This document shows, piece by piece, positions 2,249 to 25,082 of a stretch of 51,603 bases of DNA. The translations under genes and the position numbers were made by a program. Each line of letters starts with the position of its first letter. Position 1 is the first letter of the stretch. Location of the stretch: the IMG/VR virus record IMGVR_UViG_3300032024_000113, positions 1 through 51,603 of that record, one strand, 5' to 3'. A model generated the notes under the pieces. That model made no database searches. It saw only the letters and a list, made by a program, of their open reading frames with translations, and was not told the DNA's origin. The DNA comes from a virus. Taxonomy: Duplodnaviria > Caudoviricetes.

Positions 2249-5200
2249 TCAAAACCTCGCCGCGGTGAACGGGACGGTTTGCTTCGTCATGTCACCCGCC
2301 ACCGTCCCGCCCCAGGCCACGCCACGCTTGGCCAAATAGCGTGCTGCGTAGGAGGCCGCCGTGATATGCACGCACTCCTCGTCCGCCGCGCCGGTCCAGG
2401 CCATCCACTCGGCTTCCAGGGCATCTCGCCAGTCACTGCGGTCACAGGGCAGCATGACCCGTTCCTTGCGGAGCAGGTCTTGCAGGGGCACGCTCAGTTC
2501 CAGCAGTGTGCGGTCCGCACTGTCCACGAGTTCACTCGTCCCGCGGAGCCCCGCGTGCAGCTTGGAGCCCACGTCATCGTTGACGATCAGCAGCCGCTTG
2601 TACTGCCACTCATTGGCGCTGATCCGGCACTTCTCCAGCAACTCACTCCATTGCAGACGCTTCCGCCAGGCATGCCGCAGGAACATGTCCTTCGCTTGCG
2701 GATCGTAGTCCCAGACTTGCAGCACACTCCACGGGGTCTGTCGGGGCCGGTGGATGTCGGACGCGCCGCACTTGACCACGGCGATGCGTTGACACTGACC
2801 CTCGTCCACCACCCGCAGTCGACTGGTCTTCTCCACATGCAGGCGGGTCAGGATGTTGGACCGCCGCTCGAAGAACCGCAACCAAGCGGCGTCGATGATG
2901 GCGTGGCTCATGGCGGCCACCTTGTTGAAGGCCTTGGAGATCGAGTCCACGATGTCGTCATGCTCTGCGAAGGGGAACAGTTCGAACTCCTCGAACAGGG
3001 CCTGGTTCCAGCGGTGCCCCTCGCGATCAGTGACCACGTAGATGCTGCCGACCTCGGCTTGCGCTGCCAGCGATTCGGCATTGCGGACCTTATTGCCCCG
3101 CGTGGGTTGGAAGCGGGCAGTATACCCGTCGAGCATCTTCACAAAGTTTTCGGCGACGGTCTTGCCGCCGCTTCCCGGCTCCTGCTCGCACCATTGATGC
3201 ACCGTGTGGCCGTCGCGCATGGCCGTGGACTTGATCACGCGATCCCGCTCGCCGCTGCTCCACTGCCCGCGTTCGATATCGAGCACCACATAGCGTCCGT
3301 CCGTGGTCTTGCCGACCTTGGCTCCGCTGGTGAAATCGCCTTCATCCTCCGTCGCGGCGAAGTCCCACCAGCGGACCGTTTGCTGCATGGAGTCGGGGGC
3401 GGCTGGCAGCAATTGGAACCAGGCCGTTTGGAACATGCCGCCTTCCTTGGGTGCCGGGCGTTGCTGCATCTGACCGGCGGTGCCGTAGCTGCCGAGTTCT
3501 TTCTCCAGCCCCGCCAGCACAGGTTCCGAGAATTGGTGCGGCGTGAGCAGTTCACCTTCCACGGTGCGCGGGTCCGTGAACCCCAACAGCGTCGGGTTCA
3601 TGCGATCGGGTTCGTAGTGCATGGGCAGGCAGATGTGTTCATAGTCGCCCTGCTCCAGCACGTAGCCCGAGAGATCTTTCTGATGCAGTCTCTGCATGAT
3701 AATCACGCGCGCCGCACCGCGTGACACACCGCGCGTGGACATGGTCAGCGTCCACCATTCGAGCACCGCCTGCCGGTTCGCTTCGGACTCGGCACGCTTA
3801 ACATTGTGCGGGTCGTCGCAATTGTGGACCAGAACCCCGTTAGCATAGTAGTTCGCAGTGCCATGGACCGTCAGGCAATAGACTCGCTGGCACAGAGATC
3901 CTGGGCCAACATGGAAGACAGAATCTCTCGCCACAGATTCTCCAGTTTCGGTCCGCCGTGAACACTGGCGTGGCATGACCCACAAAGACTGATGGCATTT
4001 TTCATGCTGTTGTTCCGTACGTTCCCGTCGACATGATGCACAGACATGGCTTTCCCGCCATTCTCTGCTTTGGTCATTTGGCACAACCGGCACACGTAGC
4101 CGTCTCTCCGACGAACCAGCTTCGATAACTCGACAAATTCTGCGGGGTACTCCTGCGTTCCTAATCCATGCTTGTAGCGACCGTTGCGAGTGCCCTTGAT
4201 GTCTTCGCGATGCGCGAGATTGGCACATCTCCGCGTACAAAAACACCGACCGTGGTCGAAGCGGATCTTGCCGACCCAGAGAGGCGTTCCGCATTGGCTG
4301 CATGGAATACGATAGGGTAGCCCTCGCGGATGTTGCTGGTTTTTCCTGCGGCACTCGTGCGAGCACCATTGAGCGGTTGCGCGGCGTTTTCCCCATGCGC
4401 CGTGAATTGTCTTTCCGCAACCTATGCAACGCGGCTTTTCTCCTGCAAAGGCAGGGTGCGCATCTCCACGAATGGCGAGACCGTGGCAGCGGTGTGAGCA
4501 GTAGATTCGCCCGCGTGCAGCGTGGGCCGGAGGACGGTACACCGGTTTGCCGCACTGCTCGCAGGGCTGCGTGGACTGTGCCCGCTTCAATGCGTACCGA
4601 CACAGAAGGCTGCAAACTCGGTGAGGCCTGGATGGCCTCGCCGCAAAGTCTTTCCCGCAGTTCTCGCATTGCCAGATCATCAGTGACTACCTCATCATTG
4701 GCGTGCAAGTCACTCGCCGCTGTATATCCGCGACCACTCACGTAAATCAAATGATCAGGTGTGCATTCCAGTGAACGACCGGAGCGAAATCGAATACGCA
4801 CCAGTCTCGCGTTGTAGGGTCGCGACACGCACGCATAACTATTCGTGAAACGAGGCACCTTGCCAGTCAGGAGCTTGTCGCGTCCGTCCGGTGCCATGAG
4901 TGTTTCAATTGGTTTCCTGCCAGTATCGGTTGATACCAACGTGCCAGCTGGAAAGCACACGATGTAATCCGGGTGTTCTCCTGTTCCGTGCCCACCGACG
5001 CTCGTAGCCAACCGATAACCGCCTTTGTCGTTCTGGAACTTGGTCTTCTCGTTCTGGTCGTTTACGAACTTGAAGCGGTCGTACCATAACCCGTGATACC
5101 ACGACCCCTGAATCAACGCTCGGCACTTGAGGCTATCTCGCGTGCTCAGCTCCTGGTCGTACGATGCAAAGAACCATCGCGTCTGCGGCTTTGTAATCCA

Positions 5201-5455
5201 GGTCCATGTCGGCCATAGAACCGAAGTCAAAAGACTTTTCGAACAGCCAGGCGGAATGTTGATCAAGAGCTTCTTGATCTGCCCACGACTCACCGCTTGG
5301 AGGTGGGCGCAGATCGCACCGATGTGCCAACTGTCAACGAACGGTACGGACTCGATGTGCGGCCAGGCTTCCTTGACGTAGTCGTAGAGCGAGAGTTCGC
5401 AGAGATACTTGGCAGCTTCGTCGAGCAGGCGTGGATCAATAAGTTCTTCGGTCAT
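2249..5455 (-). CDS. terL: Terminase large subunit, intein-containing (1068-aa precursor, about 689 aa after splicing), with an extra degenerate C-terminal nuclease domain
   Basis: Walker A INIPPGCSKS; Walker B YIV|CDDP interrupted by the intein; motif III IIMQRLH; GQMQQRP; RNase H-like nuclease WWDFAA...HDDIVDS. Confidence 0.95.
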   Translation of the reverse strand: MTEELIDPRLLDEAAKYLCELSLYDYVKEAWPHIESVPFVDSWHIGAICAHLQAVSRGQIKKLLINIPPGCSKSLLTSVLWPTWTWITKPQTRWFFASYDQELSTRDSLKCRALIQGSWYHGLWYDRFKFVNDQNEKTKFQNDKGGYRLATSVGGHGTGEHPDYIVCFPAGTLVSTDTGRKPIETLMAPDGRDKLLTGKVPRFTNSYACVSRPYNARLVRIRFRSGRSLECTPDHLIYVSGRGYTAASDLHANDEVVTDDLAMRELRERLCGEAIQASPSLQPSVSVRIEAGTVHAALRAVRQTGVPSSGPRCTRANLLLTPLPRSRHSWRCAPCLCRRKAALHRLRKDNSRRMGKTPRNRSMVLARVPQEKPATSARATLSYSMQPMRNASLGRQDPLRPRSVFLYAEMCQSRASRRHQGHSQRSLQAWIRNAGVPRRICRVIEAGSSERRLRVPVVPNDQSREWRESHVCASCRRERTEQQHEKCHQSLWVMPRQCSRRTETGESVARDSVFHVGPGSLCQRVYCLTVHGTANYYANGVLVHNCDDPHNVKRAESEANRQAVLEWWTLTMSTRGVSRGAARVIIMQRLHQKDLSGYVLEQGDYEHICLPMHYEPDRMNPTLLGFTDPRTVEGELLTPHQFSEPVLAGLEKELGSYGTAGQMQQRPAPKEGGMFQTAWFQLLPAAPDSMQQTVRWWDFAATEDEGDFTSGAKVGKTTDGRYVVLDIERGQWSSGERDRVIKSTAMRDGHTVHQWCEQEPGSGGKTVAENFVKMLDGYTARFQPTRGNKVRNAESLAAQAEVGSIYVVTDREGHRWNQALFEEFELFPFAEHDDIVDSISKAFNKVAAMSHAIIDAAWLRFFERRSNILTRLHVEKTSRLRVVDEGQCQRIAVVKCGASDIHRPRQTPWSVLQVWDYDPQAKDMFLRHAWRKRLQWSELLEKCRISANEWQYKRLLIVNDDVGSKLHAGLRGTSELVDSADRTLLELSVPLQDLLRKERVMLPCDRSDWRDALEAEWMAWTGAADEECVHITAASYAARYLAKRGVAWGGTVAGDMTKQTVPFTAARF
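3821..4957 (-). mobile_element. Intein (379 aa) inserted in the TerL Walker B motif
   Basis: Block A CFPAGTLV (Cys1 = TGC at 4957-4955); block B LECTPDHLIY; block F VYCLTVHGTANYYANG; block G VLVHN followed by Cys+1. Confidence 0.95.
3871..4680 (-). CDS. Zinc-finger-repeat HNH homing endonuclease nested out of frame (+1) inside the intein
   Basis: 269 aa. Four CxxCG...C(S/T)xxC repeats, an NGRYKHG linker, and HNH core RDGYVCRLC...VHHVDGNVRNNSMKNAISLCGSCH. SD GAGGT lies 8 nt before the ATG at 4680. Confidence 0.9.
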   Translation of the reverse strand: MIWQCENCGKDFAARPSRPHRVCSLLCRYALKRAQSTQPCEQCGKPVYRPPAHAARGRIYCSHRCHGLAIRGDAHPAFAGEKPRCIGCGKTIHGAWGKRRATAQWCSHECRRKNQQHPRGLPYRIPCSQCGTPLWVGKIRFDHGRCFCTRRCANLAHREDIKGTRNGRYKHGLGTQEYPAEFVELSKLVRRRDGYVCRLCQMTKAENGGKAMSVHHVDGNVRNNSMKNAISLCGSCHASVHGGPKLENLWREILSSMLAQDLCASESIA

Positions 5456-5783
5456 GGCGGCCTTTTCTAATCAGTGACATCGTGACCCCGCTACCCACGG
5501 GGTGTGCTGACGGAGGCGGACGTGGTCTTTGTGCCTGGCTCATTACTTCATATTGGTGACGTACATGGCGCACAACGCCTTCACGCGGGTAGTTTCGTAG
5601 CTGGTGGGTGCCGGCCTCAATCATGGCCAGCCATTCCAGGGTTGGATTCGGGTCTTCATCGCAGCTCAGTCCGTAACAGTCCGCACAGACATACAGCACG
5701 GCCGAAGACGTGGTGGCTCGGTCGTCACACTCGCCGTCGCAAGTGCCGGTGCATGTGCCGGGGGTATGTGTGCAAGCGATCAT
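5436..5783 (-). CDS. Hypothetical Cys-rich protein
   Basis: 115-aa ORF coupled to the upstream gene (ATGA) and overlapping the terL start. Confidence 0.5.
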   Translation of the reverse strand: MIACTHTPGTCTGTCDGECDDRATTSSAVLYVCADCYGLSCDEDPNPTLEWLAMIEAGTHQLRNYPREGVVRHVRHQYEVMSQAQRPRPPPSAHPVGSGVTMSLIRKGRHDRRTY

Positions 5784-6151
5784 GCCGTGGTGCGGGTCTG
5801 CCGAAAGAAGAGAGCTTGCATGTCATGCAACACGCGGTCGTAGTCCGCCTCGGACGGTCCCAGTGGCACGGGGATGGCGCGATCATCGATGTAGGCAATT
5901 GCTTCTGGCTTGCCGCAGACCCAGTCGTACGGCAGGTCATGCTTGTCCAGCCAGGACCGCACCATGCTCACCTGCGCGGGCGTGGGATCGAGCGGATCAA
6001 TGCGGGCCGTGTGAATCACGATCTCCATACCGAACGTCTGGAGCATCTTCAGGAAGAACTTAGCCCCCTCATACGGTTCGCCGATGGATGGTCCGCTCGG
6101 GCAGGCCAGTACATGATCCAGATCCACGCAAACACGCTTGGGAGCACTCAC
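5780..6151 (-). CDS. HAD-superfamily phosphatase / nucleotidase-like protein
   Basis: GTGA coupling at 6148-6151; motifs VCVDLDHVLA, IVIHTAR and GKPEAIAYIDDRA. Confidence 0.8.
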   Translation of the reverse strand: MSAPKRVCVDLDHVLACPSGPSIGEPYEGAKFFLKMLQTFGMEIVIHTARIDPLDPTPAQVSMVRSWLDKHDLPYDWVCGKPEAIAYIDDRAIPVPLGPSEADYDRVLHDMQALFFRQTRTTA

Positions 6152-24560: not shown

Positions 24561-25082
24561 TTACTCCTTTCGTACGCCGATCGGAGATGTGGACCAGTCT
24601 GGGTCGTACAGCGTGGAGTCTGCCTTCCTGTGGCACTTGGAGCAGACTGTGATGAGATTATCCAAGTGATCTGTACCGCCAGCAGCCCGTTTCAAGATGT
24701 GGTGAACATGCAATTGGCTGGTTGCGGTTAGGCCGCAGATCTGACACTGGGAGTTATCTCGCTGCAAGACGGCTTGCCGGATCTTTGACCAAAGAAGAAT
24801 CTTGTCATACTCCTCCCATGCGCGCTCGGCTGTTTCCCTGTCCCTGCGGAGTTGTGTCTCCTCGTTTTGGAGCTTGTACACACGCTTGTATGTCGGAGAG
24901 TAAGAACTGTAGTTGCCGTCAAACGACAGCCACAGGCCGCATACTTCATCGAAGACCCACGGCAACATCTCGTCATCGACATCCACAGCGCTAGGCGTTT
25001 CTGTGGCAAGGGTTCTCGCGGTGACTGCTCGTTGTGCCATAGAGGGAGGGAGTTTCTTCAGCGTTGCGCGCTCCTTCATCAA
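24561..25082 (-). CDS. Free-standing HNH endonuclease
   Basis: VLQRDNSQCQICG...LHVHHI...GGTDHLDNLITVCSKCH. Confidence 0.88.
   Translation of the reverse strand: MMKERATLKKLPPSMAQRAVTARTLATETPSAVDVDDEMLPWVFDEVCGLWLSFDGNYSSYSPTYKRVYKLQNEETQLRRDRETAERAWEEYDKILLWSKIRQAVLQRDNSQCQICGLTATSQLHVHHILKRAAGGTDHLDNLITVCSKCHRKADSTLYDPDWSTSPIGVRKE

What the first reader, a model, noticed from the sequence alone, without database searches (positions are those of the whole stretch)
3821..4957. Terminase intein whose HNH homing endonuclease is a separate overprinted gene in the +1 frame
Seen: the intein frame (blocks A and B ... F and G, HN/C) stays open without a stop for all 379 codons, but its central ~270 codons are Arg/Ser-rich with no recognisable domain. 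The same DNA read in the +1 frame (4680-3871) encodes a coherent protein with four CxxC...CxxxC zinc-finger repeats and a complete HNH core. That ORF has its own SD (GAGGT, 8 nt upstream of ATG, within intein codons D-E-V) and its own TGA, which falls inside intein block F (VYCL|TV). Known: canonical inteins carry their endonuclease in frame, and 'fractured' split inteins have it between two separate ORFs. Inference: here one 810-nt stretch is dual-coding. One frame gives a spacer that must stay stop-free so the essential terminase can splice, and the other gives a freely translated homing nuclease. This would let nuclease dose and timing be set apart from TerL splicing. I cannot confirm from the sequence whether this architecture has been described before.
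Basis: partly seen in the sequence, partly recalled or inferred. Interest (0 to 1): 0.92.

Follow-up and report, generated by a model that had tools for sequence, protein, structure and literature searches.

The report
Terminase intein hiding out-of-frame HNH gene
A phage DNA-packaging gene carries a protein insert of the self-splicing kind (an intein), and the same DNA read one base over holds a complete gene for a predicted DNA-cutting enzyme that likely spreads the insert; the layout is real and common in phages, but it was already reported in Brucella phages in 2015.

Summary
Observation confirmed. TerL (5455-2249, minus strand) holds a 379-aa class-1 intein in its Walker B strand. A 269-aa zinc-finger HNH gene (4680-3871) lies inside it in the +1 frame. 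The intein frame is actively kept open: 0 of 44 stop-creating synonymous choices are used, against 53 of 177 elsewhere (p=1e-6), so this is not an indel artefact.

The layout is widespread: 35 IMG/VR loci, 4 cultured phages and 13 genome loci. The same TerL site is also found empty or fractured.

Two corrections. (1) The HNH is the conserved, ancestral frame; the intein spacer is the overprinted one. (2) It is known. A 2015 paper describes an intein-encoded HNH out of frame within TerL of all annotated brucellaphages, and I found that HNH to be a +1-frame homologue. Preprints of 2025 and 2026 describe out-of-frame nucleases of other types. This scan noted the layout at least eight times on other DNA.

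Splicing, translation and cutting are inferred, not shown. Separate control of nuclease dose or timing has no support here. New member of a known kind; only the family's breadth and the untested mechanism remain open.

The parts
2249..5455 (-). Terminase large subunit precursor ORF, 1068 aa; 689 aa once the intein is removed
   Evidence: PHROG 38 E 5.5e-80; TIGR01630; Terminase_6C
4958..5455 (-). N-extein, 166 aa, ending ...GEHPDYIV
   Evidence: 61% identical to intein-free L143
3821..4957 (-). Class-1 intein, 379 aa, inserted at YIV|CDD (Walker B strand; motif name recalled)
   Evidence: TIGR01445 31.7 bits (cut-off 24.5), TIGR01443 30.1 (15.6); PF14890 44.2 (35.8)
4682..4957 (-). Intein N-terminal splicing region: Cys1, block B T66-x-x-H69
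3872..4681 (-). Intein spacer (frame 0), 270 codons, Arg/Ser-rich, no domain, kept free of stops; the overprinted frame
   Evidence: no Pfam, NCBIfam or PHROG domain of its own
3871..4680 (-). HNH endonuclease gene in the +1 frame, 269 aa: four zinc-finger-like repeats and an HNH core (H215, H216, N228, H237)
4689..4693 (-). Shine-Dalgarno-like GAGGT, 8 nt before the ATG, formed by the intein's E-V codons
   Evidence: anti-SD duplex -6.9 kcal/mol; same place in L051 and L054
4687..4689 (-). +1-frame TAG two codons before the HNH ATG; limits any frameshift entry to a few codons
3821..3883 (-). Intein C-terminal splicing region: block F VYCLTV (holds the HNH stop) and block G ...LVHN
2249..3820 (-). 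C-extein, starting with Cys (CDDPHNV)

Best explanation
The terminase gene carries an intein whose middle holds a complete HNH gene in the +1 frame; the intein likely splices itself out of the 1068-aa precursor to give a 689-aa terminase, while the HNH is likely translated from its own start and is predicted to cut intein-free terL alleles so that the whole insert is copied in (homing). Selection acts at two levels: on HNH amino acids in the +1 frame, and against stop codons, with much weaker amino-acid constraint, in the intein frame. The element likely arose when a free-standing zinc-finger HNH gene entered the loop of a small intein. Lineages whose read-through frame was or became stop-free give this form; others give fractured, split-intein forms with the same nuclease between the halves.
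For: Shown: intein HMMs above cut-off with Cys1, TxxH, His-Asn and +1 Cys. Stop avoidance 0 of 44 against 53 of 177, Fisher p 1.2e-6; split and free-standing homologues do not avoid these codons to zero (7/54 to 42/81). 38 of 87 intein ends examined have this layout and none an in-frame HNH; so do 13 of 83 in genome contigs, and 83 of 190 protein hits are compatible with a hidden +1 HNH motif (0 for +2; 0 of 950 shuffles). HNH-frame identity exceeds intein-frame identity in 689 of 689 pairs, with the HNH third position least conserved in close pairs. H215, H216, H237 and core cysteines are invariant in 35 aligned members; 30 of 35 match Pfam HNH at E<=0.01; the AlphaFold2 model has mean pLDDT 82.6. 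The site is empty in 24 of 30 TerL relatives and in all 10 TerL loci among 48 motif matches. On a C-extein tree the +1 state needs 16 changes, at least 5 forced by well-supported branches. All 32 loci scored have an ATG, GTG or TTG upstream of the first zinc finger. TerL inteins of mycobacteriophages splice, and two were assayed for cleavage of intein-less alleles (PMC5050341, passages).
Against: No expression, splicing or cleavage data for this element. The window HNH is below the Pfam HNH cut-off, and Foldseek gave no match at E<=0.001; the best are HNH proteins Cap5, McrA and IscB at about E 0.02. Block F has Cys where Asp or Asn is usual and lacks the His of most relatives. An SD of -4 kcal/mol or better exists for only 19 of 32 loci and is not significantly enriched. 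The +1 state is clustered on the tree more than shuffles (3 of 500 as low), the tree is the quick one, and gain cannot be told from loss. The identity comparison used an alignment made in the HNH frame, which favours it. Pooled zero stops (0 of 1713) is by construction, as loci were classed as open.
Confidence: 0.82

Rival explanations
1. The HNH is made by +1 ribosomal frameshifting out of the terminase frame, as a fusion behind the N-extein and intein N-domain, rather than by its own initiation.
For: In 26 of 32 loci the +1 frame is open back to block B, against 5 of 32 for the +2 frame, and SD-like sites are weak in 13 of 32.
Against: In this window a +1 TAG lies two codons before the ATG, with a strong SD between; L051 and L054 show the same. 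The +1 frame is also open over an equal length further upstream in 20 of 32 loci, so openness there is a weak signal. Split relatives carry the same HNH as a separate ORF.
Confidence: 0.07
2. The HNH has been domesticated as a terminase cofactor for DNA packaging (HK97 gp74-like; recalled), and nesting ties it to terL.
For: The brucellaphage paper raises a functional link with terminase. A free-standing homologue sits directly upstream of terL in HVTV-1.
Against: Most close TerL relatives have neither intein nor nested HNH (24 of 30; 10 of 10). The HNH travels with the intein to several TerL insertion sites. The same site can hold other inserts.
Confidence: 0.06
3. The HNH in this window is an inactive remnant carried along by a splicing-only intein.
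For: No expression data; the Pfam score is weak; the HNH has a long end branch (1.01).
Against: The ORF is intact with start, SD and all invariant residues. A decayed frame would be expected to gain stops, as the other four frames have.
Confidence: 0.04
4. Assembly artefact: two compensating indels moved a normal in-frame HNH out of frame.
For: No independent reads exist; the two runs laid may be the source.
Against: An off-frame reading of this HNH should hold about 8-10 stops and holds none. Dozens of unrelated records, including cultured phages, have the same layout, and no in-frame version was found.
Confidence: 0.01

Closest known systems
Brucellaphage TerL intein with out-of-frame HNH (PMC4422536, 2015; GenBank JN939332 ORF07/ORF08)
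   Same: Same host gene, same strand, same +1 frame (ORF08 starts 823 nt into ORF07), HNH wholly nested, homologous nuclease (tblastn 30%, E 2e-8), same stop avoidance (0 of 51).
   Different: The insertion point is a few residues earlier (AD|CVIIDD against YIV|CDD). It has fewer zinc-finger repeats, a GTG start, and its stop lies nearer the intein end. In the passages read the paper notes the layout in passing and tests nothing.
Non-canonical actinobacteriophage inteins (Gosselin, Arsenault, Gogarten; bioRxiv 10.1101/2025.01.02.630785)
   Same: Contiguous intein with a homing nuclease in a separate, overlapping ORF, many in TerL; the same invasion model. Phage Clown's TerL intein is in their set and carries a +1 homologue of this HNH.
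   Different: The types named are endonuclease VII-like in frame 3, antisense LAGLIDADG or VSR-like, and in-frame HNH. A +1 zinc-finger HNH is not named in the text read; 'frame 2' and 'Brucella' do not occur. Supplements could not be seen.
Cyanobacterial dnaX intein with out-of-frame homing endonuclease (bioRxiv 10.64898/2026.09.14.751524)
   Same: Disordered in-frame spacer, overlapping nuclease ORF with SD motifs, purifying selection in the nuclease frame.
   Different: LAGLIDADG nuclease in a cellular dnaX gene.
Fractured genes with split inteins (Dassa et al. 2009, PMC2677866)
   Same: A nuclease gene between intein N and C parts. L002/L003, L194 and L200 show this at the same TerL site, and L183 close to it, with homologues of this HNH.
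   Different: The window's intein is contiguous, so splicing would be in cis. The published nucleases were GIY-YIG and Vsr-like.
ShiLan domain (PMC11855218, 2025)
   Same: An out-of-frame HNH with zinc fingers inside a stop-free in-frame insert.
   Different: No splicing domains; methylase host; third frame; no detectable RBS.

Membership tests
Class-1 intein | In-frame insert absent from homologues | tested here: met
   Site empty in 24 of 30 and 10 of 10 TerL relatives
Class-1 intein | Cys1, block B TxxH, terminal His-Asn, +1 Cys/Ser/Thr | tested here: met
Class-1 intein | Hint fold | tested here: inconclusive
   Single-sequence model, mean pLDDT 36.7; Hint and Hint_2 HMMs below cut-off
Class-1 intein | Protein splicing | not testable with these tools
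   Inferred from residues and from TerL being essential
HNH endonuclease | H-N-H core with conserved His, Asn and zinc cysteines | tested here: met
   PHROG 1271 E 3e-26; profile hits to IscB, HNH 5h0m and McrA
HNH endonuclease | Structural match to solved HNH folds | tested here: inconclusive
   Confident model; best Foldseek hits are HNH proteins at about E 0.02
Homing endonuclease | Patchy distribution beside empty alleles | tested here: met
   16 changes on a quick C-extein tree, at least 5 forced; direction not resolved
Homing endonuclease | Cleaves the intein-free allele | not testable with these tools
   No assay
Brucellaphage-type TerL intein with out-of-frame HNH | Contiguous TerL intein with nested HNH ORF in the +1 frame | tested here: met
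Brucellaphage-type TerL intein with out-of-frame HNH | Homologous nuclease | tested here: met
   tblastn E 2e-8; alignment A1; tree
Endonuclease VII-like frame-3 inteins | Endonuclease VII-like nuclease in frame 3 | tested here: not met
   Frame is +1 (frame 2); no endonuclease VII family among Pfam or PHROG hits
Fractured gene / split intein | Intein halves in separate ORFs | tested here: not met
   One 1068-aa ORF
Canonical intein with in-frame nuclease | Nuclease domain in the intein frame | tested here: not met
   No nuclease family in frame 0

The most novel reading that the evidence does not exclude
The brucellaphage oddity is one member of a large, old family of terminase inteins with a +1 zinc-finger HNH, spread over phages of at least seven bacterial phyla and several TerL insertion sites. 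Its dual-coding form and its fractured split-intein form interconvert repeatedly, and the separate start lets the nuclease be regulated apart from terminase. Dual-coding inteins would then be a main route, not a rarity, by which inteins gain nucleases and by which split inteins arise.
Probability: 0.35. Interest if true: 0.6.

Novelty: new member of a known kind. Interest (0 to 1): 0.35.

Why it matters
It is a clean natural case of an 810-nt overlap in which one frame is held by protein function and the other mainly by the need to avoid stops. Gene callers miss the nested gene: it is unannotated in Clown, RS-CA1 and S-EIVl, so such inteins can pass as decayed. Finding empty, fractured and dual-coding alleles at one TerL site with one nuclease family makes the published invasion model (PMC2677866; bioRxiv 2025) directly testable. 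The layout itself is not new, and I found no experimental test of it in the papers read.

Tried and rejected
A single-protein search for HNH relatives found none in viral contigs and only the query among 108 candidates; these word-based searches are insensitive. The first HNH alignment was too divergent for a contig scan. The single-sequence fold of the intein was uninformative. No RNA holder listed. The promoter scan found no minus-strand site in 3700-5800, and terminator-like sites were near shuffle level (3 against 1.7). RNA folding around the HNH start was not better than shuffles. The SD enrichment test across relatives was not significant and could be scored for only 12 loci. The HNH tree places the 4 split forms apart from each other (4 changes), but well-supported branches force only 1, so the direction between split and nested is unresolved. 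The careful extein tree did not finish; the quick tree is cited. A paper search for overprint or dual-coding wording with intein, HNH and phage found 0 papers; the search on alternate-frame wording listed nothing on inteins among 20 shown of 482. Rejected: indel artefact, in-frame HNH, split intein, endonuclease VII type.

Full report
Observation. The window is a 51.6-kb virus record, 62% complete by CheckV. A 1068-aa ORF at 5455-2249 (minus strand) is a terminase large subunit. Residues 167-545 (4957-3821) are an intein: both NCBIfam splicing-region models and Pfam Intein_splicing pass their curated cut-offs, with Cys1, T66-x-x-H69, His-Asn and a +1 Cys. A 269-aa ORF at 4680-3871 begins 277 nt into the intein, in the +1 frame.

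Is the open intein frame chance or artefact? A stop in the intein frame needs an HNH codon ending in T followed by one starting AA, AG or GA. Where a T-ending synonym was possible, 0 of 44 such positions use T, against 53 of 177 elsewhere (Fisher p 1.2e-6). Synonymous permutation gives a mean of 9.4 stops and zero in 1 of 20,000 draws. If indels had shifted an in-frame HNH, the off-frame reading would carry those stops, so the artefact reading fails. Logan contigs of two runs agree with the window without gaps, but they may be its source, give identical numbers and do not span the stretch in one piece.

The nuclease. Alone it is below the Pfam HNH cut-off, but it matches PHROG 1271 (HNH) at 3e-26. 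In a 35-member alignment H215, H216, H237 and core cysteines are invariant and N228 is at least 90% conserved; 30 of 35 members match Pfam HNH at E<=0.01. The profile hits IscB, a solved HNH endonuclease and McrA. AlphaFold2 gives mean pLDDT 82.6, and 89-97 over residues 181-260. Foldseek found nothing at E<=0.001; its best rows include the HNH proteins Cap5, McrA and IscB. The intein fold without an alignment was uninformative.

Relatives. Of 30 viral loci found with the C-extein, 24 are empty at this site, 1 has the window's layout (L026), 2 are fractured with a homologous HNH between the halves (L002, L003), 1 is fractured with another ORF and 2 have other contiguous inserts. All 10 TerL loci among 48 matches to the site motif are empty; the closest is 61% identical in the N-extein. 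Among 130 sequences then held, a motif search found 87 non-duplicate intein ends: 38 contiguous with a +1 HNH (35 IMG/VR loci, 2 GenBank phages, the window), 18 rows with a +2 hit, 5 split, 26 other and 0 in-frame. The motif missed Clown and S-EIVl, which I confirmed separately. In 80 genome loci, 13 of 83 intein ends were contiguous +1 (one weak hit), labelled with seven phyla; 3 were split with the same HNH, 2 were cut by contig ends, and 0 were in-frame. Of 190 proteins from two searches, 83 are compatible with a hidden +1 HNH motif, 0 with +2, and 0 of 950 shuffles. These sets were retrieved by likeness to the query, and the scans kept only the best 80 hits of a partial pass, so they show breadth, not prevalence.

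Which frame is ancestral? Over the same nucleotides the HNH frame is more conserved than the intein frame in 689 of 689 pairs (mean 31% against 20%), and close pairs show the HNH third position as least conserved (for example 0.74, 0.83, 0.53). The alignment was made in the HNH frame, which favours it, but the codon-position pattern and the free-standing homologues in four phages point the same way. The spacer is therefore the overprinted frame, the reverse of the finding's title. Split and free-standing homologues show no such zero (7/54 to 42/81).

Mobility. On a quick tree of 66 C-exteins, 36 +1 rows need 16 changes (shuffled mean 21.9; 3 of 500 as low), at least 5 forced by well-supported branches. 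The window sits in a supported clade of 12 occupied and 4 empty rows; 27 of the +1 labels there rest on the protein-motif test, not DNA. This fits homing with coexisting empty alleles but cannot separate gain from loss. On an HNH tree the four split forms fall apart from each other without strong support.

Translation. In the window a +1-frame TAG lies two codons before the ATG and the SD pairs at -6.9 kcal/mol; L051 and L054 have the same SD placement. Independent initiation is therefore the simplest reading here. Across the family all 32 scorable loci have a candidate start, but only 19 have a strong SD, and the +1 frame is open back to block B in 26, so frameshifting is not excluded for some. 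No minus-strand promoter or unusual hairpin was found. The idea of separate dose or timing is untested.

What is known. [quoted passage not shown] GenBank JN939332 annotates the nested ORF; it is in the +1 frame and homologous to the window's HNH. bioRxiv 10.1101/2025.01.02.630785 (abstract, sections 8 and 15, passages) describes frame-3 endonuclease VII-like and antisense nucleases in inteins, calls them rare and proposes invasion by free-standing genes. Its supplements were closed and may list Clown's nuclease. bioRxiv 10.64898/2026.09.14.751524 (first quarter of the text and passages) reports an out-of-frame LAGLIDADG with frame-dependent selection. Also read: PMC11855218 (abstract, introduction, discussion), PMC2677866 and PMC5050341 (passages). 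The original brucellaphage genome papers were not read. Six searches listed no survey of this +1 HNH family and no experimental test, but the library lacks most subscription journals. Eight earlier notes of this scan describe the same kind of layout on other genomes; six of them date its first description to 2025, which the 2015 paper moves back.

Verdict. Real, selected and widespread dual coding. It works like a homing intein and is a new member of a known kind. Shown: anatomy, stop avoidance, frame-specific conservation, and empty, fractured and nested alleles at one site. Inferred: splicing, independent translation, cleavage and homing, and origin by invasion. Interest 0.35.

Noticed in passing
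L081-L113, L054:6007, L210-L260: A second group of contiguous inteins, many at other TerL sites, has weaker HNH-profile hits in the +2 frame: 18 rows (one hit counted twice) and 20 rows.
   Followed up: partly
L025:1489-4251, L027:1441-4191: Contiguous inteins at the same TerL site whose spacer has no hit to this HNH profile and reads like the antisense strand of another gene; possibly an antisense nuclease. Not checked.
   Followed up: no
L004:1385-3960: Same TerL site fractured by a split intein with a different nuclease-like ORF between the halves; it looks GIY-YIG-like by eye.
   Followed up: no
L002 and L005: Sister terminases with very short branches (0.04-0.05), one fractured with the HNH and one empty: the best sign of recent gain or loss.
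   Followed up: partly
L045, L056, L057: The same +1 HNH family occurs in inteins at another TerL site (C-extein starts CEHL or CDHL).
   Followed up: partly
window 4698-4687 (-): A tiny +1-frame ORF (ATG ATG AGG TAG) overlaps the SD just before the HNH start; it could allow re-initiation.
   Followed up: no
window 24561-25082 (-): A second, free-standing HNH gene (173 aa) upstream of a replication-initiator-like ORF.
   Followed up: partly
window 2249-2900 (-): TerL has about 220 extra C-terminal residues beyond the nuclease domain match (HMM hits end near residue 850); they may be a second terminase-like domain.
   Followed up: no
L132:3413-3475, L055:4387: Some relatives carry a second intein in the TerL C-terminal half.
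   Followed up: no
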